DNA of 64,000 nucleotides from Escherichia coli (lineage in GTDB: Bacteria; Pseudomonadota; Gammaproteobacteria; Enterobacterales; Enterobacteriaceae). Every line of letters begins with the position of its first letter. Position 1 is the first letter of the stretch. Positions 2,415 through 41,382 of the stretch are shown in pieces. The notes under the pieces are model-generated. The model had not been told where the DNA came from, did no database searches, and saw only the letters and a program-made list of their open reading frames with translations. The position numbers were made by a program, and so were the translations under genes. The stretch lies in NCBI RefSeq assembly GCF_003790525.1, contig NZ_CP033635.1. One strand, written 5' to 3'.

Positions 2415-2843
2415 TTACTTATCGATAAACGGCACGATGAGCAAATCCGCACTCAACTTATTGATCATCCCGCGATATGCCGGCATCAAACGGTTGATAA
2501 ATGAGTGGTGATGACCACAGACAAGGAGGTCGCACTGCTCTTTTTGCATAATTTCCAGCAGTGTTTCCGGCATTTCTCCGCGTTCAATACGCAGTTTTGT
2601 CTTCGGCCATTGAATATTTTTCGTCAGTTTATACAGCTTGTTATCCGACTTATTCTTCAACAATTGAAGAATATCTTCTGTTGCAGGGAAGTAGATACCC
2701 GGATACAACTCGCTTAAGCCATCATCAATATGAATTAACGTCAGGTGAGCGTCATTATGTCTGGCGAGCTCCAGGGCTTTATTCACCAGTAAGGCATCTT
2801 CTTCATTCCCGGAAATTGCCACGCCAATGTGTTTATAAGCCAT
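2415..2843 (-). CDS. uspD: Universal stress protein D
   Basis: 142 aa, [42 protein letters not shown]...; Usp fold signature. Confidence 0.85.
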
Positions 2844-2869
2844 GTTTAACTCCTTCTAAAGCAACTCCA

Positions 2870-3169
2870 TCAAGCTAACGAACGCAGTGATAACTCAAAA
2901 ATAATCATCTCGGCCTGGCATGAGAAGGTGAAGGCCGCATCAAGCTCAACTTGCCCTTCCAGATCCTTAATCTTATAGGCTACGCTGGCCCCTTCATCTG
3001 CAGAGGATGCAGCGGCGGCAAGCTCTTTCAGTTTGGTCATAAAGGACTCTGCTTCTTCGCGGGTGGCAAAAAAGCGCGAAAACTTACTGGTACAGTTGTC
3101 GTTATCAATCACCGTACCGATATCAATCGCACATCCTTTAGTACTGCATTTATCTACGACATCTTTCAT
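2870..3169 (-). CDS. yiiS: Conserved small protein YiiS (UPF0381)
   Basis: 99 aa ORF in the conserved position between uspD and yiiR. Confidence 0.8.
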
Positions 3170-3380
3170 AGGGCACCTCTGTATATTCGCCTCTCTGTCG
3201 ATTACGACTTAAGAATAATGCGCCGTTAAAGGAAGAACAAACAAGTAATGATCTTATGGATTACCATTTTTTTTGATATTGCTTAAGGTGAAGAGTTCAG
3301 AAGGATTTTCCGGGCATTGTCACTTGCATCGTGGAAATAACAATCCCGGAAAAAAATAGCAGTAAGAGATATATTAAAGG

Positions 3381-3821
3381 TTAATTACTTGATTTATTGT
3401 CGGCTTTATACTTCACATCCTGGGTATCTTTACCATATTTATTTTCGCCTTGTGTGCCAACAAACGCACCAAGATCGATAAGCATCATCACCAGAATCAA
3501 TGTCGGGACAAAACGCCCCACCGCCCATTGCCAGACACCCGGTAAAATCGCCCAGTTACCCGCCAGCAGCATCCACGCCACAATCATCAGAAATGCCCAT
3601 GCGCCGGAACGCCCGCGATCATGCAAGCGCTTAACGGTTACTGCCGCTGTTGGCCAAAGCAAGCACACAAGGCAAAACGCCGCGGTCTGAATATCGAGTA
3701 AATTTTTACCCGCCAGTGAGAAAAGCACCAGCATGCCTGCGAACCACAGGCCTATCCAAATCCAGAAATCACGGCGTCCAATACGCCCTTTAAATGAGAA
3801 TAACCATTGCTGTATGGTCAT
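3381..3821 (-). CDS. yiiR: Inner membrane protein YiiR (DUF805)
   Basis: 146 aa, several hydrophobic helices (MTIQQWLFSFKGRIGRRDFWIWIGLWFAGMLVLF...). Confidence 0.8.
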   Translation of the reverse strand: MTIQQWLFSFKGRIGRRDFWIWIGLWFAGMLVLFSLAGKNLLDIQTAAFCLVCLLWPTAAVTVKRLHDRGRSGAWAFLMIVAWMLLAGNWAILPGVWQWAVGRFVPTLILVMMLIDLGAFVGTQGENKYGKDTQDVKYKADNKSSN

Positions 3822-3921
3822 GTAAGTTCCTTGATGGTTGTCTTTTCCAGGATTCTACCCTTTTGACAAGGGCGACAGATATCGTTTTAATCGGAGCCAG
3901 TCATAACAAAAGGTACTGTCA

Positions 3922-4521
3922 ATGAAGCCAGGGTGTACGCTGTTTTTTCTCTTATATTCTGCATTAACCGTTACAACAACGGCGCATGCACAAACACCAG
4001 ATACGGCAACGACCGCGCCTTATCTGCTGGCTGGAGCCCCTACTTTCGATCTCTCCATCAGCCAGTTTCGAGAAGACTTTAACAGCCAGAATCCCAGCCT
4101 GCCACTGAACGAATTTCGTGCCATCGACAGCAGTCCCGACAAAGCCAATCTCACTCGTGCTGCCAGTAAAATTAACGAGAACTTGTATGCTTCTACAGCG
4201 CTGGAGCGCGGTACCTTAAAAATCAAAAGCATTCAAATGACCTGGCTACCCATCCAGGGGCCAGAGCAAAAAGCCGCGAAAGCGAAAGCTCAGGAATACA
4301 TGGCAGCGGTGATCCGCACACTCACCCCATTAATGACCAAAACACAAAGCCAGAAAAAACTGCAGTCGCTACTAACGGCGGGGAAAAACAAACGTTATTA
4401 CACCGAGACAGAAGGTGCACTGCGTTATGTTGTCGCGGACAACGGCGAAAAGGGGCTGACCTTCGCTGTTGAACCGATTAAGCTGGCACTATCTGAATCG
4501 CTTGAAGGTTTGAATAAATGA
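3922..4521 (+). CDS. yiiQ: Secreted protein YiiQ (DUF1454)
   Basis: 199 aa with N-terminal signal peptide (MKPGCTLFFLLYSALTVTTTAHA). Confidence 0.8.
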   Translation: MKPGCTLFFLLYSALTVTTTAHAQTPDTATTAPYLLAGAPTFDLSISQFREDFNSQNPSLPLNEFRAIDSSPDKANLTRAASKINENLYASTALERGTLKIKSIQMTWLPIQGPEQKAAKAKAQEYMAAVIRTLTPLMTKTQSQKKLQSLLTAGKNKRYYTETEGALRYVVADNGEKGLTFAVEPIKLALSESLEGLNK

Positions 4522-4628
4522 CAAAAAGCAAAGCCTTTGTGCCGATGAATCTCTATACTGTTTCACAGACCTGCTGCCCTGCGGGGCGGCCATCTTCCTT
4601 TATTCGCTTATAAGCGTGGAGAATTAAA

Positions 4629-5396
4629 ATGCGACATCCTTTAGTGATGGGTAACTGGAAACTGAACGGCAGCCGCCACATGGTTCACGAGCTGGTTTCT
4701 AACCTGCGTAAAGAGCTGGCAGGTGTTGCTGGCTGTGCGGTTGCAATCGCACCACCGGAAATGTACATCGATATGGCGAAGCGCGAAGCTGAAGGCAGCC
4801 ACATCATGCTGGGTGCGCAAAACGTGGACCTGAACCTGTCCGGCGCATTCACCGGTGAAACCTCTGCTGCTATGCTGAAAGACATCGGCGCACAGTACAT
4901 CATCATCGGCCACTCTGAACGTCGTACTTACCACAAAGAGTCTGACGAACTGATCGCGAAAAAATTCGCGGTGCTGAAAGAGCAGGGACTGACTCCGGTT
5001 CTGTGCATCGGTGAAACCGAAGCGGAAAACGAAGCGGGCAAAACTGAAGAAGTTTGTGCACGTCAGATCGACGCGGTACTGAAAACTCAGGGGGCTGCGG
5101 CATTCGAAGGTGCGGTTATCGCTTACGAACCTGTATGGGCAATCGGTACTGGCAAATCTGCAACTCCGGCTCAGGCACAGGCTGTTCACAAATTCATCCG
5201 TGACCACATCGCTAAAGTTGACGCTAACATCGCTGAACAAGTGATCATCCAGTACGGCGGCTCTGTAAACGCGTCTAACGCTGCAGAACTGTTTGCTCAG
5301 CCAGACATCGACGGCGCGCTGGTTGGCGGTGCTTCTCTGAAAGCTGACGCTTTCGCAGTGATCGTTAAAGCTGCAGAAGCGGCTAAACAGGCTTAA
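4629..5396 (+). CDS. tpiA: Triosephosphate isomerase
   Basis: 255 aa, [26 protein letters not shown]...[21 protein letters not shown]; classic TIM motifs. Confidence 0.95.
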
Positions 5397-18264: not shown

Positions 18265-19164
18265 TCAAAGAATTAGCACTTGCTCTTCACTAGAAACTAT
18301 GGTTCTGACTTCACGCTCAAATATTGGATCCATTATCATTTTTCTATTTGTTGGAATAGTAAATTTACCGAGTACCATGACAATGCTACTCAACGGAAAT
18401 AATTTTGGAGTAACATTTCCTAATTGAATCGTAGGATATATATTAAAGCCCCCTTTTATCCTCATTGGCGAACCTTCAATGAAGTGTCGATAATTAAATT
18501 TCGCCATAGGGATTCTCGCCACATGCACTTTCATAATTACAGCAACCTGAGCTATTTTTACTTTCTGGAGGTAAGTTGACAATCGTTCTAACTGCGTTGT
18601 TTCATAGAAAAAATCAGACCACGTTACAGTACTTGTTCCAGTAACAATTTTTATGCTGTTTCTCTTGTTGGGGTGAGCTTTTCCATATTCATAGATCTCC
18701 CGTAAGCTATCCATGTTCTTCACATAAGGGGCTTTCCGACCTCTCTTGACATAAACGCGGTCTGTAGTATCAGAAGGTGGATTTGCCTGCATAGCTGCAG
18801 CTTTTCTGCTTAATTTAGAGATATCATCTTCATCGAGTATATGTATACGGAATATATTATTACCTGTGGCAAGCGCACGGCTGATATCATGACTGGAATC
18901 ACTTGCATAAATTGTATTCAATCCTGAAGTTCCATACTGGCATAATTTGTCATGCGTGAAATTTTTTTCCAGTCTAAAGAAGGCGGGGATATGCAAGGTT
19001 TTATTAAAACTCCGACGAATATGGCTTTTGACATACACCAAATGAGCAGAGCAATTTGGGTCAGGACATTTGAGTGGATAGGGATTAACACTATAATTAA
19101 AAGTATTTACATTTACTAAAATCTGATTGTTATCAATAGCCTGAGTTATACGAATACCACTCAT
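18265..19164 (-). CDS. Hypothetical protein at the Z/fun variable locus between G and FI (candidate anti-phage cargo)
   Basis: 299 aa ORF with GGAGG 5 nt upstream of the ATG; AT-rich relative to flanking tail genes; no family recognised by eye (contains CPDPNC). Confidence 0.6.
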   Translation of the reverse strand: MSGIRITQAIDNNQILVNVNTFNYSVNPYPLKCPDPNCSAHLVYVKSHIRRSFNKTLHIPAFFRLEKNFTHDKLCQYGTSGLNTIYASDSSHDISRALATGNNIFRIHILDEDDISKLSRKAAAMQANPPSDTTDRVYVKRGRKAPYVKNMDSLREIYEYGKAHPNKRNSIKIVTGTSTVTWSDFFYETTQLERLSTYLQKVKIAQVAVIMKVHVARIPMAKFNYRHFIEGSPMRIKGGFNIYPTIQLGNVTPKLFPLSSIVMVLGKFTIPTNRKMIMDPIFEREVRTIVSSEEQVLIL

Positions 19165-24439: not shown

Positions 24440-25225
24440 ATGTTCAGTGATAATGTGACTAATGCGTGGTGGTTTATCTCTTTGTATCTATTTTTATTAA
24501 TAGCATTAACATTTGTTACCTTTGGTAAAAGTAATCTTATGAGGTTTATTGCACATCATTTCAATCTTGAGTATTCAGACAGAAAGTTAAAAATGCTCGA
24601 CAAAAAATGGCGCGACATTCAACTATTTAAAATAATTAACGGAATCAATGTATCAGGCATCGAAGATGTGAGAATGATACAGCAGGGGCTGATTGATGGA
24701 AAACTAAAAACATCGTATTTTTTCCTTACTCGCTTCTGGGGTGACATAACAAAACCACCACACATAATTAAAACAACAATTGTAATTCTGGCCAGTATTA
24801 TTTATATTCTCTTCGCATGTTATATACACAATGAACAATCCGCTATAGTAAGGGATGCCATAGGTATACCATATAAAAATATGATGTACTATGTTTATAG
24901 TGACAAAGTTCTTTTATCCTTCAAAAATAAAACGGTTGAATTTAATAAAACTTATAGCCTTGCCGATTGCAAGAGTCTGCAAAACGTATTTATAAAAGAC
25001 ACACTTCCCGAGATCGCCTGCAATAAGCTCTTACAGCTAAACAAGGAGGACTCCGAATGGTTAAGTCAGGAGATTAAAGATAATAACAGCCACAGAAAAA
25101 CATTATTAATAATATCCCTAACCTATTTCATTTCAGGTCTGCTTATATTCCTGTCATATACAAAATTCCTTTACGCCAATAAGAAGGTTTTAGAATACAA
25201 AGCATCAAATAAAAACCACTCATAA
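24440..25225 (+). CDS. Hypothetical membrane protein at the orf30 position, opposite strand to the tail genes
   Basis: 261 aa, very AT-rich, about three predicted TM helices (WWFISLYLFLLIALTFVTF; TIVILASIIYILFACYI; LLIISLTYFISGLLIFLSY). Confidence 0.6.
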   Translation: MFSDNVTNAWWFISLYLFLLIALTFVTFGKSNLMRFIAHHFNLEYSDRKLKMLDKKWRDIQLFKIINGINVSGIEDVRMIQQGLIDGKLKTSYFFLTRFWGDITKPPHIIKTTIVILASIIYILFACYIHNEQSAIVRDAIGIPYKNMMYYVYSDKVLLSFKNKTVEFNKTYSLADCKSLQNVFIKDTLPEIACNKLLQLNKEDSEWLSQEIKDNNSHRKTLLIISLTYFISGLLIFLSYTKFLYANKKVLEYKASNKNHS

Positions 25226-31670: not shown

Positions 31671-33443
31671 ATGACCATCACCACAGACACCACTCTTTTA
31701 CACGACCCGCGTCGTCAGGCGGCGCTGCTGTACTGGCAGGGGTTTTCCGTGCCGCAGATTGCCGCCATGTTGCAGATGAAACGCCCGACGGTGCAGAGCT
31801 GGAAACAGCGCGACGGCTGGGACAGCGTTGCCCCCATCAGCCGTGTCGAAATGAGTCTGGAAGCGCGGCTGACCCAGCTCATCATCAAACCGCAGAAAAC
31901 CGGCGGTGACTTCAAGGAAATTGACCTGCTGGGACGCCAGATTGAACGACTGGCACGGGTCAACCGCTACAGTCAGACCGGCAACGAGGCAGACCTTAAT
32001 CCGAACATCGCTAACCGCAACAAAGGCGGGCGGCGCAAACCGAAAAAGAATTTTTTCAGCGACGAAGCCATCGAAAAGCTGGAGCAGATTTTCTTTGAGC
32101 AGTCTTTCGACTATCAGTTGCACTGGTATCGCGCCGGGCTTGAGCACCGCATCCGCGATATCCTGAAATCCCGCCAGATTGGCGCAACGTTTTATTTTTC
32201 CCGCGAGGCGCTGCTGCGTGCCCTGAAAACCGGTCATAACCAGATTTTTCTGTCGGCCAGTAAAACGCAGGCGTATGTGTTCCGCGAATACATCATCGCC
32301 TTTGCCCGGCTGGTTGACGTTGACCTGACCGGTGACCCGATTGTCCTGGGCAATAACGGCGCAAAACTGATTTTTCTCGGCACCAACTCCAACACCGCGC
32401 AGAGCCATAACGGCGACCTGTACGTCGACGAGATTTTCTGGATCCCGAATTTTCAGGTACTGCGTAAGGTGGCATCAGGTATGGCCTCACAGAGTCACCT
32501 GCGCTCGACCTATTTCTCCACCCCGTCCACGCTGGCGCACGACGCCTACCCGTTCTGGTCGGGTGAACTGTTTAACCGGGGACGCGCCAGCGCCGCCGAA
32601 CGCGTGGAAATCGACGTCAGTCATAACGCCCTTGCCGGTGGGCTTCTCTGTGCGGACGGCCAGTGGCGGCAGATTGTCACCATTGAGGACGCCCTGAAAG
32701 GCGGCTGCACGCTGTTCGACATTGAGCAGCTCAAACGCGAAAACAGCGCCGACGATTTTAAAAACCTGTTCATGTGTGAATTTGTTGACGACAAGGCGTC
32801 GGTATTCCCGTTCGAGGAGCTGCAACGCTGCATGGTCGACACGCTGGAAGAATGGGAAGACTATGCGCCGTTTGCCGCCAATCCGTTCGGCTCCCGCCCG
32901 GTATGGATTGGTTACGACCCGTCACACCGTGGCGACAGCGCCGGATGCGTGGTGCTGGCACCGCCGGTGGTGGCCGGAGGTAAATTCAGAATACTTGAGC
33001 GTCACCAGTGGAAAGGCATGGACTTTGCCACTCAGGCGGAATCCATCCGCAAACTCACCGAAAAATACAACGTCGAATACATCGGAATTGATGCCACCGG
33101 CCTCGGTGTCGGCGTGTTCCAGCTCGTGCGCTCGTTCTATCCCGCCGCGCGCGATATCCGCTACACGCCGGAAATGAAAACCGCAATGGTGCTCAAGGCA
33201 AAAGACGTCATCCGCCGTGGCTGTCTGGAATATGACGTCAGCGCCACCGACATCACCAGCTCGTTCATGGCTATCCGCAAGACCATGACCAGCAGCGGAC
33301 GCAGCGCCACCTATGAGGCCAGCCGTAGCGAGGAAGCCAGCCACGCCGACCTCGCCTGGGCGACCATGCACGCCCTGTTAAATGAGCCACTCACCGCCGG
33401 TATCAGCACCCCGCTGACATCCACCATTCTGGAGTTTTACTGA
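31671..33443 (+). CDS. P: Terminase large (ATPase) subunit P
   Basis: 590 aa from ATG 31671 (MTITTDTTLLHDPRRQAALLYWQGFSVPQIAAM...); ORF-track start at 31641 is a TTG extension. Confidence 0.85.
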   Translation: MTITTDTTLLHDPRRQAALLYWQGFSVPQIAAMLQMKRPTVQSWKQRDGWDSVAPISRVEMSLEARLTQLIIKPQKTGGDFKEIDLLGRQIERLARVNRYSQTGNEADLNPNIANRNKGGRRKPKKNFFSDEAIEKLEQIFFEQSFDYQLHWYRAGLEHRIRDILKSRQIGATFYFSREALLRALKTGHNQIFLSASKTQAYVFREYIIAFARLVDVDLTGDPIVLGNNGAKLIFLGTNSNTAQSHNGDLYVDEIFWIPNFQVLRKVASGMASQSHLRSTYFSTPSTLAHDAYPFWSGELFNRGRASAAERVEIDVSHNALAGGLLCADGQWRQIVTIEDALKGGCTLFDIEQLKRENSADDFKNLFMCEFVDDKASVFPFEELQRCMVDTLEEWEDYAPFAANPFGSRPVWIGYDPSHRGDSAGCVVLAPPVVAGGKFRILERHQWKGMDFATQAESIRKLTEKYNVEYIGIDATGLGVGVFQLVRSFYPAARDIRYTPEMKTAMVLKAKDVIRRGCLEYDVSATDITSSFMAIRKTMTSSGRSATYEASRSEEASHADLAWATMHALLNEPLTAGISTPLTSTILEFY

Positions 33444-34477
33444 TGAGCAAGAAAAAAGGGAAAACACCGCAACCTGCGGCAAAAAAAATGACCGCCAGCG
33501 CCCCGAAAATGGAGGCATTCACCTTTGGTGAGCCGGTGCCGGTACTCGACCGCCGTGACATTCTGGATTACGTCGAGTGCATCAGTAACGGCAGATGGTA
33601 TGAGCCACCAGTCAGCTTTACCGGTCTGGCAAAAAGCCTGCGTGCTGCCGTGCATCACAGCTCACCGATTTACGTCAAACGTAACATTCTGGCCTCAACG
33701 TTTATCCCACACCCGTGGCTTTCTCAGCAGGATTTCAGCCGCTTTGTGCTGGATTTTCTGGTATTCGGTAATGCGTTTCTGGAAAAGCGTTACAGCACCA
33801 CCGGTAAGGTCATCAGACTGGAAACCTCACCGGCAAAATATACCCGCCGTGGCGTGGAGGAGGATGTTTACTGGTGGGTGCCGTCCTTCAACGAGCCGAC
33901 ACCTTTCGCGCCCGGCTCCGTGTTTCACCTGCTGGAGCCGGATATTAATCAGGAGCTGTACGGTCTGCCGGAATATCTCAGCGCCCTTAACTCTGCCTGG
34001 CTGAATGAGTCGGCCACGCTGTTCCGCCGCAAGTATTACGAAAACGGCGCTCATGCCGGATATATCATGTACGTCACTGATGCCGTGCAGGATCGCAACG
34101 ATATCGAAATGCTTCGCGAAAACATGGTGAAGTCGAAAGGCCGCAACAACTTTAAAAACCTGTTTCTCTATGCCCCGCAGGGGAAAGCTGACGGCATTAA
34201 AATTATCCCGCTCAGTGAAGTGGCAACGAAGGACGATTTTTTTAATATCAAAAAAGCCAGCGCCGCTGACCTGCTGGACGCGCACCGCATCCCCTTTCAG
34301 TTGATGGGCGGCAAGCCGGAGAACGTCGGGTCGCTGGGTGATATTGAGAAAGTAGCAAAGGTCTTTGTCCGCAATGAGCTTATCCCGTTACAGGACAGGA
34401 TCCGCGAGATAAACGGCTGGCTCGGTCAGGAGGTCATCCGATTTAAAAACTACTCACTGGACACTGACAACGGCTGA
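33443..34477 (+). CDS. Q: Portal protein Q
   Basis: 344 aa; start overlaps the P stop (TGATG); P2 gpQ length. Confidence 0.9.
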   Translation: MSKKKGKTPQPAAKKMTASAPKMEAFTFGEPVPVLDRRDILDYVECISNGRWYEPPVSFTGLAKSLRAAVHHSSPIYVKRNILASTFIPHPWLSQQDFSRFVLDFLVFGNAFLEKRYSTTGKVIRLETSPAKYTRRGVEEDVYWWVPSFNEPTPFAPGSVFHLLEPDINQELYGLPEYLSALNSAWLNESATLFRRKYYENGAHAGYIMYVTDAVQDRNDIEMLRENMVKSKGRNNFKNLFLYAPQGKADGIKIIPLSEVATKDDFFNIKKASAADLLDAHRIPFQLMGGKPENVGSLGDIEKVAKVFVRNELIPLQDRIREINGWLGQEVIRFKNYSLDTDNG

Positions 34478-34892: not shown

Positions 34893-35966
34893 ATGGATAA
34901 CAAAATCGTAGAAATTGAGACAAATAAGCTTGATTTTGACCCTAAAAACCCACGTTTCTTTCGTCTCAATGATGCCAGTAACGCTGCAACAGTCATTGAG
35001 GAAATGTTAGATGACGAAAGTGTCCACGATCTAATGCTATCAATCGGTCAGCAAGGTTACTTTCCTGGAGAACCTTTATTGGCAGTAAAAAGCAATGGAA
35101 ACTACATCGTGGTTGAGGGAAACAGACGCTTAGCTGCTGTAAAGTTGCTCAATGGAGATCTGCTTCCTCCAAAAAGAAAACTTAAAGGTGTGCAAGAAAT
35201 CATTGATGATACTACCAATAAACCTAAGAAGCTTCCCTGCATCATTTATGAAAACCGAGAGGATGTACTGAGATATATCGGTTATCGTCATATAACTGGG
35301 GTCAAAGAATGGGACTCATTATCTAAAGCCAAATACCTTAAAGAGTTATGTGATACTTTTTATTCACATGAGCCTAAAGAGATAGTATTAAAAAATCTGG
35401 CTCGTGAGATTGGGAGTAAACCACATTATGTTGCAACACTTCTCACTGCACTGAACTTATATGAAGTCGCGCATGACCATGAGTTTTTTAATTTACCCAT
35501 GAAGGCTTCTGACGTGGAATTTTCATATATAACCACAGCTTTGGGATATTCAAAAATCACAAACTGGTTAGGTCTACAGGATAAAAAGGATTTTTTAGAC
35601 CCAAATTTAAATGAAGAAAACCTTAAGCGTTTATTCTCTTGGTTTTTTGTGCCTGACCAACAAGGTAGAACCATCATCGGTGAGTCTCGAAGAATAAAAG
35701 ATATTGCAGCAGTGGTTGAGAAACCCGAAGCAATTGAAATTCTCATGAAAAGTTCAAACTTGGATGAAGCATATCTATATACCAGCGGAGAAAGAGAAGC
35801 ATTAGATAAAGCACTAAACGCAGCTAGTGTTAAATTAAGAGTAGTTTGGGATATGCTACTTAAAGCTAAAGAATTAACATTAGAGCATGAAGAGGCTGCA
35901 TCTGAAATTTTTGAGATGTCAAAAAATATTAGAAATCAGATCAGAAGCAAAAGGGAGGATGATTGA
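34893..35966 (+). CDS. ParB/Srx-like N-terminal domain protein (cargo gene 1 at the old/tin position)
   Basis: 357 aa from ATG 34893 (RBS gagg upstream); ParB-box-like motifs LDFDPKNPRF and IVVEGNRRLAAVKLL; AT-rich. Confidence 0.7.
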   Translation: MDNKIVEIETNKLDFDPKNPRFFRLNDASNAATVIEEMLDDESVHDLMLSIGQQGYFPGEPLLAVKSNGNYIVVEGNRRLAAVKLLNGDLLPPKRKLKGVQEIIDDTTNKPKKLPCIIYENREDVLRYIGYRHITGVKEWDSLSKAKYLKELCDTFYSHEPKEIVLKNLAREIGSKPHYVATLLTALNLYEVAHDHEFFNLPMKASDVEFSYITTALGYSKITNWLGLQDKKDFLDPNLNEENLKRLFSWFFVPDQQGRTIIGESRRIKDIAAVVEKPEAIEILMKSSNLDEAYLYTSGEREALDKALNAASVKLRVVWDMLLKAKELTLEHEEAASEIFEMSKNIRNQIRSKREDD

Positions 35967-35970
35967 GATT

Positions 35971-36996
35971 ATGATTACAAATCTTGATTCAATGCCTTCT
36001 AATGAGCCTTATTTATGGGCTGATTATATTGAGATATTGGCCTTAACTAATATCGACAGGTCATTCAGTCGAGGAGACCTATATAGCACACTGCAAGCTC
36101 AACCCGAAGCAGTACTAGCTGAAACAGATGAAGCAGAAGAAGAGGGCGTTTATGATGTTGATGATGAAAATGATACGCCTGTACGCAAGAGAACAAAACG
36201 AAGTGTTAGTCGAGCATATACTGACAGAAAGTGGAGCTATGCGATAGGCTTCATACGACAACGCATTGATTTATTTGGGGATAGTTACCCTTTTACTTTA
36301 TCAGAAGACAACGATACTGTAGAGTTACGTGATATATCAGAAAAGCCACTGGAACATTTAGAAAGACTATATTTAGCTTTACTAATCTGTGCTAACATAA
36401 AATATGTCAACATAATGAGCAGAAGAGAGATAACGCGCAGTTTTGAACTAATTAGTTTACCTATTTTTGAAAGCCTAATGCCTAGCGGTAGCATAATAAA
36501 AGCATGCTGGGCTTCTGGTGGTCAAGCGGCCCCTTACACTGGAACTCTATATAATAAATTTAAGAGTATTGCTTCCGATATCCGTTGCACAGCGAACTTC
36601 AAAGAACGAGATTTCAGTCGAGGAAATAGTGGTGACGGAGGCCTTGACATAATTGCCTGGCATCCAATGGGAGATCAACGAGATGCCATCCCTATTTCTT
36701 TTGTTCAGTGTGGCTGTTCTCAAGAAGAGTGGGAAGCGAAGCAGCTTGAGGCCTCACCTGCGATGCTCTACAGTAAATTCCCCGTAGCTCACCGATGGGC
36801 AACTTATTATTTCTTACCTCAAGATCTACGATGGATAGATGGTGAGTGGGCGCATAAAAATAAGTTAGGCGATGCTATTTTTGTTGATCGCCTAAGATTA
36901 ATCAATTTAACCAGAGCATCTGATAATATTGATCACAGTCAAAATATTAGCTATCTAGATATCATCCTTGATCCTTCCAGCGCGATCGCTGCTTAA
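35971..36996 (+). CDS. Hypothetical protein, possible PD-(D/E)xK-type nuclease (cargo gene 2)
   Basis: 341 aa; starts 4 nt after gene 1 (alternative ATG 35959 overlaps its stop); contains GDGGLDIIAW ... ISFVQCGCSQEEWEAK, resembling an Mrr-type catalytic core but lacking the canonical QCK lysine. Confidence 0.6.
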   Translation: MITNLDSMPSNEPYLWADYIEILALTNIDRSFSRGDLYSTLQAQPEAVLAETDEAEEEGVYDVDDENDTPVRKRTKRSVSRAYTDRKWSYAIGFIRQRIDLFGDSYPFTLSEDNDTVELRDISEKPLEHLERLYLALLICANIKYVNIMSRREITRSFELISLPIFESLMPSGSIIKACWASGGQAAPYTGTLYNKFKSIASDIRCTANFKERDFSRGNSGDGGLDIIAWHPMGDQRDAIPISFVQCGCSQEEWEAKQLEASPAMLYSKFPVAHRWATYYFLPQDLRWIDGEWAHKNKLGDAIFVDRLRLINLTRASDNIDHSQNISYLDIILDPSSAIAA

Positions 36997-37931
36997 TCCC
37001 ATAAATCTGGAAGGTTTCTAGCAACCGCCTCAAACAATGGAGGCGGTACTGCATTACCTACCACAGTATATTTCATATTAATAGAAGCCCGTTCAGTTTC
37101 TGGGAAAATTAAATCCCCAAAACCTTGTAAAATAGCAGCCTCTCGATAGCTAAACCTACGAGCTGGTGCATCCGAAGTAAATTGCCACTTATCAGGTCCC
37201 AATTTTTCTAATGTTGGACTTATTGGATGTAGAGGCATATGTCTAGGATTTGCAACAATTGTTTTAGATATCTGATCCCAATCTTGCCTACGGTTTCGCG
37301 ATAGATAATACCAATGAAAATCGGCGTCATAAAACTCGCCAACAGGCCAAACAGGCATATGCCCAATAGCATCACGAATTGTGGAATATGGTGTCAAACC
37401 ATCACCATGTGTTGGTTTTGGAAATTTGTATGTAATACCGTAGTCCTTTCGTATTCCTACGATAAAGATTCGCTTCCTATCTTGGGATACCCCATAATGG
37501 GACGCATTCAGAATTTGCGAGCTTACTGTATAACCTGCTTCTTCGAAAACTTTGAATTGATCCTTTAATAAATGCTCAAAGTTACGCCTTACCATACCAG
37601 AGACATTCTCTACAATGAATGCTTTTGGCTTAATTTTACTCAAAGCACGGGCAAACTCTAAATATAGTGTATTAATCTTTCTATCTGCCTTCCTTGCCCC
37701 ACCTTGACTAAATCCTTGGCAAGGATAGCATCCGATGAGCAACTCAGCAGAAGGGAACGACTGGAGCCCTGAGATATCGCCCAAAATGTAGTCAGTTTCA
37801 GGATGGTTTTCTAAGTAAACGTCCCTTGCGTAAGGCAAAATATCATTTGCCATAAGCACATTGAAACCTGCGTTCAAAACTCCCGCATCAGAACCACCAC
37901 ATCCAGAAAAAAGTGAAACTACAGTTGGCAT
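36993..37931 (-). CDS. DNA cytosine-5 methyltransferase, HaeIII/HhaI-type small m5C MTase (cargo gene 3)
   Basis: 312 aa with motif I FSGCGG, motif IV PCQGFS, motif VI ENV, motif VIII QDRKR, motif X GNAVPPPL, plus YYLSRNRRQDW resembling the M.HaeIII variable region; convergent with gene 2 (4-bp overlap). Confidence 0.85.
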   Translation of the reverse strand: MPTVVSLFSGCGGSDAGVLNAGFNVLMANDILPYARDVYLENHPETDYILGDISGLQSFPSAELLIGCYPCQGFSQGGARKADRKINTLYLEFARALSKIKPKAFIVENVSGMVRRNFEHLLKDQFKVFEEAGYTVSSQILNASHYGVSQDRKRIFIVGIRKDYGITYKFPKPTHGDGLTPYSTIRDAIGHMPVWPVGEFYDADFHWYYLSRNRRQDWDQISKTIVANPRHMPLHPISPTLEKLGPDKWQFTSDAPARRFSYREAAILQGFGDLIFPETERASINMKYTVVGNAVPPPLFEAVARNLPDLWD

Positions 37932-38173
37932 TGACCCCTCCTAAAAACCGACCGCGTATTATAGCGAAACACCCCGTTGGGAAAAGCTAGATTTTGCCAA
38001 GTCTTGATATTCTCACGTTTTAGTAGTTGTGGCCATCTTTAACGAGAAAAAGATAAAATTGACTTCTCATTAATTTTCAATAGGTTTAATTGTAAGCTCA
38101 AACTAACGCCTCGCGACACTCGTTATTCAACCCCGCCAGCCCTGAAAACAAGTTTCACGACTGGCGGCGTTCT

Positions 38174-38323
38174 CTATCGTCTGCGTTGTGGTGGCGCAAC
38201 TCTGGACTGACCGATATGGTTAAACCGCCCGTAATTATCCCGGACTATTTCGGCACACCCGACCAGCTCATCGGGCGTCAGATTTTCGTTGACCATAATC
38301 CGCTGTAAACGCTGAACAATAGC
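38174..38323 (-). CDS. Small hypothetical ORF downstream of the orf91-position gene
   Basis: About 49 aa from MAIVQRLQRIMVNENLTPDELVGCAEIVRDNYGRF...; start and reality uncertain. Confidence 0.3.
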   Translation of the reverse strand, partial: AIVQRLQRIMVNENLTPDELVGCAEIVRDNYGRFNHIGQSRVAPPQRRR

Positions 38324-38379
38324 CATCAGCTTGATATTTTTAGTTTTATGGTGCGGTATCTCGCCTGGTATTCTGTGCA

Positions 38380-38832
38380 TTATCCAAGCCACCCGTTTTG
38401 CTGTGCACGCTCCATCTGTTCATCTGAATAGTTCCATGCTCCATCCGTGGCAACCATTGCCCCGCCAGACATCCCCGTCTCTGGTTCATACATAACAGCA
38501 AGGCCGAGCTGATGCATAATTTCATGATTAATTCTGAATACCAGGCCACGCTCACTAAGTTCTTTCCAGTTCACAATCTCATATGCGCCTGTATTAAGCA
38601 GCTCAATACTTAGCAAGACATAATCTTCCAGCCAGTCTGACAGGTCAGTAACATCTGTTATCCGGGCTTCAACATTTCGCCCCGTATACACACCCTGCAC
38701 CCATTCATACAAAATCAACGTGTCCCCGCGCTCATAATTACGGTCATTTTTCCGGAACTCTGCACGTTTCTTTCCTTCCAGCACAAGGTCGAAATATTTT
38801 GCGTGCAGCTTTACCTCGTGAATTTTTGCCAT
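38380..38832 (-). CDS. ASCH/DUF3850-like protein at the orf91 position
   Basis: 150 aa from MAKIHEVKLHAKYFDLVLEGKKRAEFRKNDRNYERGDTLILYEW...; start overlaps the A stop by one nucleotide. Confidence 0.6.
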   Translation of the reverse strand: MAKIHEVKLHAKYFDLVLEGKKRAEFRKNDRNYERGDTLILYEWVQGVYTGRNVEARITDVTDLSDWLEDYVLLSIELLNTGAYEIVNWKELSERGLVFRINHEIMHQLGLAVMYEPETGMSGGAMVATDGAWNYSDEQMERAQQNGWLG

Positions 38833-41117
38833 TATGTCCACTCCATTACTGTTGAGAATCCCGGCCACTCATCAGCGACCGGATACGTGAATTTTTTCCC
38901 GTCATAATTTACGGTCGCGCCACGCGCCAGCGCCTCAAGCTCCCATCGCTGCGGCCTGATACCGTTCTGAGCAAGGTCAACGCGGATACGGGTAATTTGC
39001 GTTCGTTCCGACCGGGTCAGTCTGGCCGATGGCGCTATTTCATGTGGTTTTAACGGGCTTCCGTTTCTCTGCTGACGATTTGGTGTTCTCAGTTCGTGTT
39101 TTAATGCACCTCTGAGCGCCCTCACGACCTCTGGCTCATTCCATTCGATAACACCGTCATCAACCAGATTAAGCACGGCTGCGGCATGTTCATAAGGTGT
39201 GGGAGCCGGTAACGAAGTATCACTGCCGGTGAGCTTTCCACAGTTATTGACAGGACTCCGAGGCGCGGCGATGCCGCTTTTTAAAGTCAAAGGCTCAACG
39301 ACCGGAACTTTCGGCACAATGCGCCAGTCCGTCGTTCTGGTGATATGAATATGACGCGCGCCGAGATGCGGCGCGTAAATACCGACCACTCTCTCGACTT
39401 CTTCCTCGTACTCGTTAACGTCACTCGACGGGCTACGGGCAACCCTGACAGTCTGACAATCGCGCGGGACATTTGCCCCACCCTGCGCGCTGATATACAA
39501 CGCAAAATCACCACTGTCTGCGGCAGCGCGAGCAGCCTCGACGCGTTCGTCAAACTCATCAGCAATACTGACGCCGCGAGGTAATTTGCGTAGTTCACGG
39601 TAAGCCCCCATTGTCGGTAGGCCAACCGTTTTAAATTGCGGAATGCGCCACGTTGACGCCCATGCGGTAACAGCCGCGGCAGTGTCTTTCAGCGGCCTGC
39701 CGGTATCGTTATCGAGCTGACCATCCAGTGCATAGCCGTCGATGTTTTTTGAAATGTATTTCGCGATATACCCCGCAGCACCGCCCCGATTAAGGTGTTT
39801 TGCCTGAAAACGGTTTCGCGCGGCTCCTCTTTCGTCGCCATCCTCTTTGAGCGCATAGCGACGCATGATTTCGATAATCTGGTTACGCTGGCGCGAATTA
39901 CAAAAAAGCATCATATGCCAGTGCGGCGTTCCGTCGTGGTGTGGCTCGACGACACGCAAACCGTAGACCTGTAAATCATTATCCTTGAATGCCGTGCGCA
40001 TCAGGCTCCAGATACGGCAGAGATAACGCTGCGCATCCTTTGGATTAAATGCCTCATCGTTCCAGCCGTGATTAAGCTGCACGGTTTTACTTTCGCCTTT
40101 TCCTACCTGACGTGTCGGGTGATACTTTGACGGCGCGGTCAGCGTGATAAACATCCCCACATCACCCTCTGCAGCGGCGTAACGCTCAATACCGGCAATG
40201 GTGTTCATCAGCTCCATCCGGCGAATTTCAGGATTAGAAATACTGCCCATCACCTTACTGATAAGGTCGATGCGCTCGCCGGTTTCCCTGTTTTCAAGGT
40301 CACACGATTTAAGAAATTCCAGATTTGCCTGGCGGCGCGCACGCACATCACGAATGGCATGTTTACTGGCATAAGGTGAACGGTCTTTATTGACCTCCCC
40401 GACAGCAATCAGTAACGCCTCATGCCAGCGCATACGCTGGCCTTTAAGCTGTCTAATCCACCACTCATCGTTAAACAGGCGGGCAATGGCAGAATATGCC
40501 TGCCTCGTGGTCATCTGCCCTTTACGGTATTTTCTCCAGTACAGCGGGGAAATATTGAAAGCACGTGCAGCGCCAGCAACATGACCATACAGGTGAGCCT
40601 GCGCCTCATCCGTAAACAGCGATTCTTTTTCGCCATGGGCATCCACCCAGGCATCGCAGAGTTCCTCATACATCATGAAAAGCTGCGATGAGATACGGGC
40701 GGCAAACTTTTTCAGCTCCTTGTCATTCATTCCCGGCAGGCGCGCATAGTGGTCACGCTCTGCCAGAAACAGCAACGACGCGTCGGTGTTCATTTCATGG
40801 CGCTGATTCACACGCTCAATGCGCGGCCATAAACGACGCTGAAAAGTGGATGTGAGGAAATAAAACCCGTGCACCGGGCTTTTATTGCGCCGGATGTAGT
40901 CATAGCGTGAAGTAAACAGCGAGCGCAAAAAGTAAGGCAGGCGGTTAATCGTGGATAAAACACCTTGCACCTGACGCATCTCATCACGTGTAAGGGGTCT
41001 TTCGCGCCCGACGGCCTCGCGTGGCGCGTTCCATGCATAAGCACCGGTAAACATCTTACCGGTGCCTGCGGCAAATGCTGACGGAGGGACAAAACGCCCG
41101 GAGGCTTTAACGGCCAT
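38832..41117 (-). CDS. A: Replication initiation protein A (rolling-circle nicking endonuclease)
   Basis: 761 aa from MAVKASGRFVPPSAFAAGTGKMF...; P2 gpA length. Confidence 0.85.
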   Translation of the reverse strand: MAVKASGRFVPPSAFAAGTGKMFTGAYAWNAPREAVGRERPLTRDEMRQVQGVLSTINRLPYFLRSLFTSRYDYIRRNKSPVHGFYFLTSTFQRRLWPRIERVNQRHEMNTDASLLFLAERDHYARLPGMNDKELKKFAARISSQLFMMYEELCDAWVDAHGEKESLFTDEAQAHLYGHVAGAARAFNISPLYWRKYRKGQMTTRQAYSAIARLFNDEWWIRQLKGQRMRWHEALLIAVGEVNKDRSPYASKHAIRDVRARRQANLEFLKSCDLENRETGERIDLISKVMGSISNPEIRRMELMNTIAGIERYAAAEGDVGMFITLTAPSKYHPTRQVGKGESKTVQLNHGWNDEAFNPKDAQRYLCRIWSLMRTAFKDNDLQVYGLRVVEPHHDGTPHWHMMLFCNSRQRNQIIEIMRRYALKEDGDERGAARNRFQAKHLNRGGAAGYIAKYISKNIDGYALDGQLDNDTGRPLKDTAAAVTAWASTWRIPQFKTVGLPTMGAYRELRKLPRGVSIADEFDERVEAARAAADSGDFALYISAQGGANVPRDCQTVRVARSPSSDVNEYEEEVERVVGIYAPHLGARHIHITRTTDWRIVPKVPVVEPLTLKSGIAAPRSPVNNCGKLTGSDTSLPAPTPYEHAAAVLNLVDDGVIEWNEPEVVRALRGALKHELRTPNRQQRNGSPLKPHEIAPSARLTRSERTQITRIRVDLAQNGIRPQRWELEALARGATVNYDGKKFTYPVADEWPGFSTVMEWT

Positions 41118-41382
41118 ATGAGCCAAAAGCCTCTGAACAACGCCTGCTGAGTTGCTCAACCTGCGCGTTTAAATCAGCAAAAGACTTTGCGCTTCCGGTC
41201 AGAATATCGTGATGCATCAGGCCGGAAACGAGCTGGCTTAATTTCGGGTAATAACCAACCACCGCCAGCCATTCCTGACCGGCGTTTTTACCGCTTTCAG
41301 CTCTCTTTTTCTCGTGGAGAATAAACTGAAAGCTGTCACTGGTAACGACATAACGTTCGCCAATTTCAATACGAATACTCAT
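41107..41382 (-). CDS. P2 orf83-like small protein
   Basis: 91 aa ORF in the conserved early-operon position, tightly packed with neighbours. Confidence 0.6.
   Translation of the reverse strand: MSIRIEIGERYVVTSDSFQFILHEKKRAESGKNAGQEWLAVVGYYPKLSQLVSGLMHHDILTGSAKSFADLNAQVEQLSRRCSEAFGSYGR

What the first reader, a model, noticed from the sequence alone, without database searches (positions are those of the whole stretch)
36993..37931. Small m5C methyltransferase with HaeIII-like variable region
All canonical motifs are present, and the stretch YYLSRNRRQDW between motifs VIII and IX resembles the M.HaeIII target-recognition region as I recall it. A GGCC-type specificity would be unusual for E. 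coli and would mark the whole prophage/host DNA.
Basis: inference. Interest (0 to 1): 0.5.

Follow-up and report, generated by a model that had tools for sequence, protein, structure and literature searches.

The report
Phage WΦ cytosine methylase, HaeIII-like
The ORF is a real, intact DNA cytosine-5 methyltransferase (the already-annotated mth gene of the P2-like coliphage WΦ) whose DNA-reading region does resemble the GGCC enzyme M.HaeIII, and it sits beside two conserved genes that look like its uncharacterised restriction partner.

Summary
Observation confirmed. Window 36993..37931 (-) encodes a 312-aa C5-cytosine methyltransferase with motifs I, IV, VI, VIII, IX and X. YYLSRNRRQDW lies between VIII and IX.

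Among solved structures, only M.HaeIII aligns through the variable region. Its GGCC-contacting residues S224, R225, R227 and R243 are invariant here. S219 and Q244 are both His, so this is a distinct TRD subfamily. GGCC is the best guess (about 0.55) but is untested.

The gene is not new. It is 99.9% identical to mth of coliphage WΦ (NC_005056) and lies in the P2 hotspot between portal and gpA. It occurs in 139 of 5426 complete E. coli genomes.

It is not solitary. It converges on orf96 (model: winged helix plus PD-(D/E)xK nuclease fold, restriction enzymes as best fold matches) and orf98 (ParB/sulfiredoxin fold). This trio recurs in Klebsiella and Morganella prophages and in betaproteobacterial chromosomes. 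Remote orf98/orf96 pairs sit next to other C5 methylases, often with Vsr.

Best reading: the modification arm of an uncharacterised restriction-modification-type defence cassette. The methylase itself is of ordinary interest; the partner module is of moderate interest.

The parts
36993..37931 (-). mth: 312-aa C5-cytosine DNA methyltransferase, identical to WP_001143634.1 and 99.9% identical at DNA level to phage WΦ mth
   Evidence: ORF. Pfam PF00145 E 5.5e-61, full length. M.HaeIII 1dct E 1.6e-48. WΦ annotation.
37893..37910 (-). Motif I FSGCGG (AdoMet binding)
   Evidence: invariant F8, G10, G12, G13 in A2
37707..37727 (-). Motif IV YPCQGFS with the catalytic Cys71
   Evidence: aligned to P-C71-Q of M.HaeIII
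37470..37484 (-). Motif VIII QDRKR
   Evidence: identical to QDRKR of M.HaeIII
37224..37310 (-). Core of the target-recognition region, YYLSRNRRQDWDQISKTIVANPRHMPLHP (aa 208-236). S211, R212, N213, R214, W218, T224, R230 and L234-H235-P236 correspond to M.HaeIII S224, R225, N226, R227, W231, T237, R243 and L247-H248-P249.
   Evidence: These residues are invariant in 118 family members and in the 47%-identical Ramlibacter enzyme.
37041..37145 (-). Motifs IX (REAAILQGF) and X (GNAVPP)
35959..36996 (+). orf96/gp96 homologue (341-345 aa; alternative start at 35971). N-terminal winged-helix-like domain plus C-terminal PD-(D/E)xK-like nuclease domain. Candidate restriction nuclease. Its stop overlaps the stop of mth by 4 bases, convergent.
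34893..35966 (+). orf98/gp98 homologue (357 aa). ParB/sulfiredoxin-fold N-terminal domain with invariant E75-G76-N77 and R79 (R78 at least 90%) in the VEGNRRLAA stretch, plus an all-helical C-terminal domain. Overlaps the orf96 start by 8 bases.
34900..38000 (.). Low-GC cargo island (GC 0.35-0.44 against 0.52-0.60 in the flanks) at the P2 'tin/old' hotspot. It lies between portal gene Q (33443..34477, +) and orf92/orf91/gpA (38174..41159, -).
   Evidence: The hotspot is described in PMC9519451 and PMC9122126.

Best explanation
The ORF is an active AdoMet-dependent DNA cytosine-5 methyltransferase. By homology it flips the target cytosine out of the helix, attacks C6 with Cys71 and transfers a methyl group to C5.

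Its target-recognition region is of the M.HaeIII type. The most likely product is GGm5CC on both strands.

It is the modification gene of a three-gene cargo cassette (orf98, orf96 and mth, as in phage WΦ) carried in the portal-gpA hotspot of a P2-like prophage. The methylase protects the lysogen's chromosome and the prophage from a two-protein endonuclease encoded convergently:
- orf96 would supply DNA binding (winged helix) and cleavage (PD-(D/E)xK).
- orf98 would supply a ParB/Srx-fold, possibly nucleotide-dependent, partner.

Unmethylated incoming phage DNA would be cut, so the cassette would work as prophage-encoded restriction-modification.

Shown here: methyltransferase identity and intact motifs; TRD homology to M.HaeIII; the folds of the two neighbours; conserved three-gene linkage. 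Inferred: enzymatic activity, the GGCC site, cleavage by orf96/orf98, and the defence phenotype.
For: Methyltransferase:
- Full-length PF00145, with all motifs and the catalytic Cys present.

TRD:
- M.HaeIII is the only solved structure that aligns through the variable region.
- Of the residues that contact bases of the GGCC site in M.HaeIII (PMC11879396 Table 2; PMC3526282), S224, R225, R227 and R243 are invariant. This holds in 118 family members and in cassette MTases down to 47% identity.
- R225 is the residue whose loss abolishes G1 readout. S224 and R227 are the residues mutated when M.HaeIII was evolved towards GGWCC. Their conservation argues for a contiguous GGCC.
- One depositor's annotation reads 'Modification methylase BspRI'.

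R-M context:
- The same trio sits at the same prophage position in E. coli (103 genomes at >=99%; the one diverged-partner genome opened, of 36, has ParB-N and hypothetical genes in the same layout).
- It also sits there in Klebsiella and Morganella.
- Outside prophages it occurs in Methylotenera, Oryzomicrobium and Ramlibacter, the last with Vsr.
- Remote orf98 relatives (32-39% identical) are each followed by an orf96-like ORF (26-28% identical in the two compared) and a PF00145 methylase, two of three with Vsr.
- The orf96 model matches restriction endonucleases. The orf98 model matches ParB-N proteins.
- In strain JXZ9A32M an IS5 interrupts orf96 while mth and orf98 stay intact.

Host compatibility:
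- E. coli W, the natural WΦ host, lacks mcrBC, mrr and hsd (PMC3032704).
- SMS-3-5 also lacks mcrBC and mrr at that locus.
Against: - No methylation data for any carrier strain were found.
- S219 and Q244 of M.HaeIII, both base contacts at position 3, are His/His here. They are invariant in each clade, so the TRD is a separate subfamily.
- TRD identity to M.HaeIII is only 27%.
- The TRD finds no Bacillus-phage methylase at E<0.01. To my knowledge those multispecific enzymes carry a GGCC module.
- The mcrBC argument is weak. Only 597 of 5426 E. coli genomes carry K-12-type mcrBC.
- No defence or cleavage assay exists.
Confidence: 0.6

Rival explanations
1. Same enzyme and same cassette, but the recognition site is not plain GGCC. 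It could be a related or extended site (for example GGNCC, GGWCC, YGGCCR or RGCC-like), because this TRD is a distinct subfamily of the HaeIII type.
For: - M.HaeIII S219 and Q244 (contacts to position 3) are replaced by His206 and His231, each invariant in its own clade. R229, Q239 and Q246 also differ.
- The segment before the TRD core is about 17 residues shorter than in M.HaeIII.
- In M.HaeIII a few TRD substitutions are enough to shift specificity (PMC3526282).
- The related L021 enzyme (48% identical) has lost the R243 equivalent, so this TRD type does drift.
Against: - R225, S224, R227 and R243 equivalents are all invariant.
- S219A and Q244A mutants of M.HaeIII keep GGCC specificity (PMC11879396), so changes at those two positions need not alter the site.
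- No solved enzyme of other specificity aligns in this region.
Confidence: 0.27
2. The methylase is a solitary phage 'anti-restriction' or epigenetic enzyme. It would protect phage DNA from GGCC-type host restriction or tune gene expression. orf98 and orf96 would be functionally unrelated cargo.
For: - Phage-borne orphan methylases are common.
- A survey of P2-like viruses lists dcm-type genes as auxiliary genes that may help evade host immunity (PMC13100340).
- mth has its own orientation and its own upstream region.
Against: - Every one of the 11 locus types opened (10 where orf96/orf98 or their remote relatives were looked up, plus the IS5-disrupted E. coli locus) has a C5 methylase within about 5 kb. 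These span Gammaproteobacteria, Betaproteobacteria and metagenomic contigs. The methylases have different TRDs, and four of the loci carry Vsr.
- All 139 E. coli genomes with mth matched at least the mth part of the cassette. 103 matched the whole cassette. The one diverged-partner locus opened (of 36) also has both partner genes.
- The stop codons overlap.
Confidence: 0.1
3. The gene is present but silent or inactive in the lysogen, so that host DNA is not marked.
For: No expression or methylation data. Prophage cargo genes are sometimes repressed or decayed.
Against: - All catalytic motifs are intact, with a good Shine-Dalgarno sequence.
- The sequence is conserved at >=99% in 103 genomes, and the TRD is invariant across the family.
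- If the neighbours are a nuclease, the methylase must be expressed for the lysogen to survive.
Confidence: 0.05

Closest known systems
mth (DNA cytosine methylase) of Escherichia phage WΦ, NC_005056 / AY135739, with orf96 and orf98
   Same: The whole 3039-bp cassette is 99.9% identical. It has the same position, downstream of gpA/orf91/orf92 and next to the portal gene. The chromosomal site is also the same, cpxP-fieF, as for prophage Wphi1 of E. coli W (PMC3032704; SMS-3-5 context).
   Different: Nothing of substance; this is the same gene. In the papers I could search, no specificity for Mth and no function for orf96 or orf98 is reported.
M.HaeIII (GGm5CC), PDB 1dct / 3ubt
   Same: 38% identical overall. 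It aligns end to end, including the TRD. S224, R225, N226, R227, W231, T237, R243 and L247-H248-P249 are conserved. It is of similar small size (312 against 330 aa).
   Different: The TRD core is only 27% identical. S219 and Q244 are His. The loop before the TRD is about 17 aa shorter. The partner genes found here are not of the HaeIII endonuclease family, since there is no Pfam RE_HaeIII or other RE_ family hit.
Druantia type II methylase DruM (PADLOC PDLC00027 / PDLC00031)
   Same: These are the best profile matches in PADLOC (E 1e-110 and 9.5e-88). They cover residues 4-307 and so include the TRD.
   Different: No DruE, DruF or DruG-like genes are nearby. The neighbours gave no Druantia model hits, and the locus is only three genes between phage core genes. 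This is a shared methylase lineage, not a Druantia system.
PD-λ-5 (Vassallo et al. 2022), described as a compact prophage RM+Abi system
   Same: It carries a ParB-N-like domain in a methylation-linked defence system. It needed a host with the mrr region deleted for cloning (PMC9519451). orf98 matches the first ~150 positions of many PD-Lambda-5_A models (E to 3e-24).
   Different: Only the ParB-N part matches. PD-Lambda-5_A profiles are 430-590 positions long and the authors label the protein a methyltransferase. Here the methylase is a separate C5 enzyme and the second protein is a PD-(D/E)xK-like protein with no PADLOC hit.
Classical Type II R-M systems with PD-(D/E)xK endonucleases (for example SdaI, or NgoMIV/Cfr10I/Bse634I)
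   Same: A C5 methylase sits next to a nuclease-fold protein in convergent layout. SdaI likewise combines winged-helix and PD-(D/E)xK domains.
   Different: There is an extra, strictly linked ParB/Srx-fold protein. There is no sequence similarity to any named endonuclease family. The catalytic motif is atypical.
GmrSD / SspE-type enzymes (ParB-like DUF262 NTPase domain plus nuclease domain)
   Same: They combine a ParB-superfamily domain with an endonuclease in DNA-modification-aware restriction (my knowledge of the family). ParB-like folds are listed among the nuclease domains of R-M systems in PMC3710099.
   Different: Those are single-chain, modification-dependent or phosphorothioate-sensing enzymes with HNH-type nucleases. 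Here there are two chains, a PD-(D/E)xK fold and a cognate protective methylase.

Membership tests
DNA cytosine-5 methyltransferase (Pfam PF00145) | Full-length match to the family profile above threshold | tested here: met
   PF00145 E 5.5e-61, residues 3-307, model 2-322 of 324. TIGR00675 185.6 bits against cut-off 100.65.
DNA cytosine-5 methyltransferase (Pfam PF00145) | Conserved motifs I (FxGxG), IV (PCQ with catalytic Cys), VI (ENV), VIII (QxRxR), IX and X (GNAVP), in the canonical order with the TRD between VIII and IX | tested here: met
   Positions listed. Aligned to the same motifs of M.HaeIII.
DNA cytosine-5 methyltransferase (Pfam PF00145) | Transfers methyl from AdoMet to C5 of cytosine in DNA | not testable with these tools
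   Needs an enzyme assay or methylome data; none found in the literature searched.
M.HaeIII-type (GGCC) methyltransferases | Variable region homologous to the M.HaeIII TRD | tested here: met
   M.HaeIII is the only solved structure aligned through 4-307. TRD-only BLASTP E 1e-11.
M.HaeIII-type (GGCC) methyltransferases | Conservation of the base-contacting residues S219, S224, R225, R227, R243, Q244 (PMC11879396 Table 2; PMC3526282) | tested here: inconclusive
   S224, R225, R227 and R243 are conserved and invariant in the family. S219 and Q244 are both His, while invariant S/Q in 120 HaeIII relatives.
M.HaeIII-type (GGCC) methyltransferases | Methylates the inner cytosine of GGCC, so DNA becomes resistant to HaeIII/BsuRI | not testable with these tools
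   No methylome or digestion data found for WΦ, E. coli W, SMS-3-5 or other carriers.
Type II restriction-modification system | Methyltransferase gene adjacent to, and co-inherited with, an endonuclease gene | tested here: met
   The trio is conserved in all 11 locus types opened. The adjacent orf96 has a nuclease fold.
Type II restriction-modification system | The partner cleaves unmethylated DNA at or near the methylase's site and is blocked by the methylation | not testable with these tools
   Inferred only. Supporting anecdote: IS5 inside orf96 with mth intact in one genome.
Type II restriction-modification system | The partner belongs to a named restriction endonuclease family | tested here: not met
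   No Pfam, NCBIfam or PADLOC hit and no PDB sequence hit for orf96. Fold-level similarity only.
Druantia type II | DruM together with DruE (large helicase-like protein), DruF and DruG | tested here: not met
   Only the methylase matches DruM models. The cassette is three genes, bounded by the phage portal gene and gpA.
PD-λ-5 | Full-length match of the A protein (ParB-N plus methyltransferase), plus a B protein | tested here: not met
   orf98 matches only profile positions ~1-160 of 430-590. orf96 has no PADLOC hit.
ParB/Srx superfamily (orf98) | ParB-N fold with the GxRR arginine motif | tested here: met

The most novel reading that the evidence does not exclude
orf98 (ParB/Srx fold plus helical domain) and orf96 (winged helix plus PD-(D/E)xK) form a widespread, uncharacterised two-subunit restriction endonuclease family. 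It pairs with C5 methylases of different specificities, often with Vsr. The ParB-like subunit may act as a nucleotide-dependent switch or clamp that licenses cleavage. WΦ/E. coli W would offer a ready model, and the system would be an undescribed occupant of the P2 defence hotspot.
Probability: 0.45. Interest if true: 0.6.

Novelty: new member of a known kind. Interest (0 to 1): 0.38.

Why it matters
Practical side. If the site is GGCC, about 2.6% of sequenced E. coli would carry dense GGm5CC marks. That group includes the industrial strain W/KO11 and many carbapenem-resistant clinical isolates listed. Related prophages in Klebsiella, Enterobacter and Morganella would do the same. Three consequences follow from established knowledge:
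- The DNA would resist HaeIII-type digestion.
- It would add C-to-T mutational hot spots.
- It would become a substrate for McrBC-type restriction when moved into K-12 cloning hosts.

Biological side. The methylase points to a three-gene cassette in the well-known P2 defence hotspot. Its nuclease side has no named family. Relatives are spread across Proteobacteria and metagenomes. It is a tractable candidate for a new flavour of restriction-modification.

Tried and rejected
1. Finding methylases of known specificity to compare TRDs.
- The homologue search with the query returned only generic names.
- A search with M.HaeIII itself returned 120 unnamed close relatives. These were useful only for the conservation analysis.
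- The cluster look-up gave no specificity name.
- tblastn of the TRD against phages found no Bacillus-phage methylases.

2. Literature search for a measured motif.
- Searches on PD-λ-5, Druantia DruM, Klebsiella and E. coli 5mC methylomes, WP_001143634, Wphi and ATCC 9637 found no specificity for this enzyme.
- The Odegrip 2006 paper on the P2 variable locus is not held.

3. GGCC avoidance as a signature.
- GGCC is already depleted across the whole window (observed/expected 0.62).
- The cassette has 5 GGCC sites at 39% GC. This is uninformative.

4. mcrBC incompatibility test.
- E. coli W and SMS-3-5 lack mcrBC.
- Only 11% of E. coli genomes have K-12-type mcrBC.
- The tools cannot intersect the two genome lists, so the test has no power as run.

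5. Druantia II and PD-λ-5 membership. Both were rejected on gene content.

6. Promoter and terminator scan of the cassette. Counts were no better than in shuffled sequence.
Full report
**1. The observation**

Window 36993..37931 on the minus strand is one open reading frame of 312 codons. It starts at an ATG preceded by AGGAGGGG. It matches the C5-cytosine methylase family end to end: Pfam PF00145 residues 3-307, E 5.5e-61, and NCBIfam TIGR00675 at 185.6 bits against a cut-off of 100.65.

The motifs sit in canonical order:
- I, FSGCGG, aa 8-13
- IV, YPCQGFS, aa 69-75 (Cys71)
- VI, ENV, aa 108-110
- VIII, QDRKR, aa 150-154
- IX, REAAILQGF, aa 263-271
- X, GNAVPP, aa 292-297

The quoted YYLSRNRRQDW is aa 208-218 (window 37278-37310), between VIII and IX.

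**2. Is the variable region HaeIII-like?**

Yes. Against all PDB sequences the best match is M.HaeIII (1dct, E 1.6e-48). It is the only match whose alignment continues through the variable region (query 4-307). M.HhaI, DNMT1, 3g7u and M.MpeI stop at or before about residue 214. The variable regions alone give E 1e-11, although only 16 of 59 positions are identical.

The published M.HaeIII-DNA contacts are S219 (position 3), S224 (position 2), R225 (position 1), R243 (position 4 and +1 flank) and Q244 (position 3). R225A loses readout of the first G (PMC11879396). R225, S224, R227 and R243 are also the residues that changed first when M.HaeIII was evolved to other sites (PMC3526282).

In this protein the equivalents of the following M.HaeIII residues are all present: S224, R225, N226, R227, W231, T237, R243 and L247-H248-P249. 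They are invariant in 118 homologues at 75-100% identity. They are also invariant in cassette methylases from Betaproteobacteria down to 47% identity.

Two contact positions differ. S219 and Q244 are both His here. Each state is invariant in its own clade: 120 HaeIII relatives against 118 WΦ-type proteins. The loop before the TRD core is about 17 residues shorter.

So this is a distinct subfamily of the HaeIII-type TRD. S219A and Q244A do not change M.HaeIII specificity. GGCC therefore remains the best single prediction, and I put it at about 0.55. A related or extended site is a serious rival.

An identical prophage record carries the depositor's label 'bspRIM, Modification methylase BspRI'. 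To my knowledge M.BspRI is a GGCC enzyme. This is an annotation, not a test.

**3. What and where it is**

The gene is not new. The 3039-bp stretch 34893-37931 is 99.9% identical to coliphage WΦ (NC_005056). There the three genes are orf98, orf96 and mth, 'DNA cytosine methylase'.

The window holds a WΦ-type P2-like prophage inserted between fieF and cpxP. This is the site reported for prophage Wphi1 of E. coli W (PMC3032704).

The cassette lies between the portal gene Q and orf92/orf91/gpA. That is the 'tin/old' hotspot of P2-like phages, known to hold varied defence systems (PMC9519451; PMC9122126). It is a low-GC island: 0.35-0.44 against 0.52-0.60 in the flanks.

mth is present in 139 of 5426 complete E. 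coli genomes, always chromosomal and single copy.
- 103 genomes carry the whole cassette at >=99%.
- 36 (O145:H28 and others) carry a 93%-identical mth. The one such locus I opened has diverged ParB-N and hypothetical partner genes in the same layout.

Homologues at 75-90% identity are common in Klebsiella, Enterobacter, Citrobacter, Morganella, Serratia and Yersinia.

**4. The neighbours**

mth converges on orf96, and their stop codons overlap by 4 bases. orf98 overlaps the orf96 start by 8 bases.

*orf96* has no Pfam, NCBIfam, PADLOC or PDB sequence match.
- Winged-helix proteins match the N-terminal part.
- The family has invariant E163, G225-D226-G227, D230, Q250 and K261. These are plausible active-site residues in a non-canonical arrangement. 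This assignment is inferred.

*orf98* has a ParB/sulfiredoxin-fold N-terminal domain.
- Model pLDDT is 94.1.
- E75, G76, N77 and R79 are invariant and R78 is at least 90% conserved. A helical C-terminal domain follows.
- Sequence profiles see it only weakly: ParB_N E 0.067 and parB_part below cut-off.
- The N-terminal 150 residues match PD-Lambda-5_A models.

**5. Linkage**

The trio recurs at the same prophage position in Klebsiella and Morganella.

Outside prophages it occurs in Methylotenera and Oryzomicrobium in the same convergent layout. In Ramlibacter it occurs with Vsr and with the methylase a little further away.

orf98 belongs to a large family: 287 clusters at 50% identity with E below 1e-30. 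I opened three remote members (32-39% identical). Each is followed by an orf96-like ORF. The two compared are 26-28% identical to orf96, at E 7e-31 and 6e-35. Each also has a PF00145 methylase nearby, two of three with Vsr.

Those methylases have different variable regions. The orf98/orf96 module therefore travels with C5 methylases of different specificities.

This pattern is what a restriction endonuclease and its cognate methylase look like. It is hard to reconcile with mth being a solitary enzyme.

One genome has an IS5 inside orf96 with mth and orf98 intact, in a decaying prophage.

**6. Mechanism proposed**

Mth methylates its site (probably GGCC) on the lysogen and prophage DNA. orf96 and orf98 together attack DNA that lacks the mark.
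- orf96 would bind through the winged helix and cut through the PD-(D/E)xK domain.
- orf98 would act as a ParB-fold partner that may bind a nucleotide.

Only the identities, folds and linkage are shown. Activity, site, cleavage and defence are inferred.

A GGm5CC product would be an R-m5C substrate for K-12 McrBC (established knowledge of McrBC). E. coli W lacks mcrBC, mrr and hsd, and SMS-3-5 lacks mcrBC and mrr. However, K-12-type mcrBC occurs in only 597 of 5426 genomes, so this agreement carries little weight.

**7. Comparison with known systems**

- The methylase is a member of the C5 family, and is the WΦ mth gene itself.
- Its closest characterised relative is M.HaeIII.
- Its best PADLOC model is the Druantia II methylase DruM (E 1e-110). 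No other Druantia gene is present, so it is not Druantia.
- PD-λ-5 shares only the ParB-N domain.
- ParB-like folds are already listed among nuclease domains of R-M systems in comparative genomics (PMC3710099).
- In the searchable literature I found no description of this particular trio, and no specificity for Mth.
- REBASE could not be consulted, so prior characterisation there cannot be excluded.

**8. Verdict**

The finding is real. Its central inference, a HaeIII-type TRD, is correct. The claimed GGCC specificity is plausible but unproven. The gene is an annotated gene of a known phage and is moderately common, which lowers its surprise value.

This is the conserved ParB-fold plus PD-(D/E)xK pair, which looks like an uncharacterised restriction partner in the P2 defence hotspot.

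Noticed in passing
window 18265..19164 (-): A 299-aa ORF with no PADLOC hit. It sits between the tail-fibre assembly gene and the tail sheath gene, which is the P2 Z/fun position that Vassallo et al. call a second defence hotspot. It is annotated 'hypothetical protein' in SMS-3-5.
   Followed up: partly
window 24440..25225 (+): A 261-aa, hydrophobic, AT-rich ORF inserted between a virion morphogenesis gene and baseplate gene V, on the opposite strand to its neighbours. No PADLOC hit. Possible further cargo gene.
   Followed up: partly
L015 (NZ_CP193883.1, strain JXZ9A32M) 2567-4795: An IS5 splits the orf96 homologue into two fragments, while mth and the ParB-like gene stay intact. The portal and gpA genes of that prophage are truncated.
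   Followed up: yes
L011, L019, L020 (Ramlibacter and two metagenome/MAG contigs): A Vsr (very-short-patch repair endonuclease) gene is embedded in the orf98/orf96/methylase clusters. The enterobacterial prophage cassette has none, and E. coli supplies its own Vsr with Dcm.
   Followed up: partly
L019 9099-10655: A GmrSD_N (DUF262, also ParB-superfamily) protein lies immediately after the methylase of a remote orf98/orf96 cluster. That gives two ParB-superfamily proteins in one small island.
   Followed up: no
L017 (SMS-3-5, NC_010498.1 5,005,139-5,010,123): The immigration-control region of SMS-3-5 holds a split DUF262/GmrSD gene, symE, an hsdR fragment and a 3'-5' exonuclease. K-12 has mcrBC-hsdRMS-mrr at this position.
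   Followed up: partly
window 38380..38868 (-) and 38174..38392 (-): Between gpA and mth lie an orf91-like DUF3850 protein, extended C-terminally (matches phrog_1812, with phrog_986 'RNA-binding protein' for its first half), and a small orf92-like ORF (phrog_11386). Their function is unknown.
   Followed up: no
L021 2351-3322: This methylase is 48% identical to Mth and has the same TRD scaffold. The Arg equivalent to M.HaeIII R243 is replaced (ATSSHIPLHP), and Ser224 is Thr. It may be a natural specificity variant of this TRD type.
   Followed up: no
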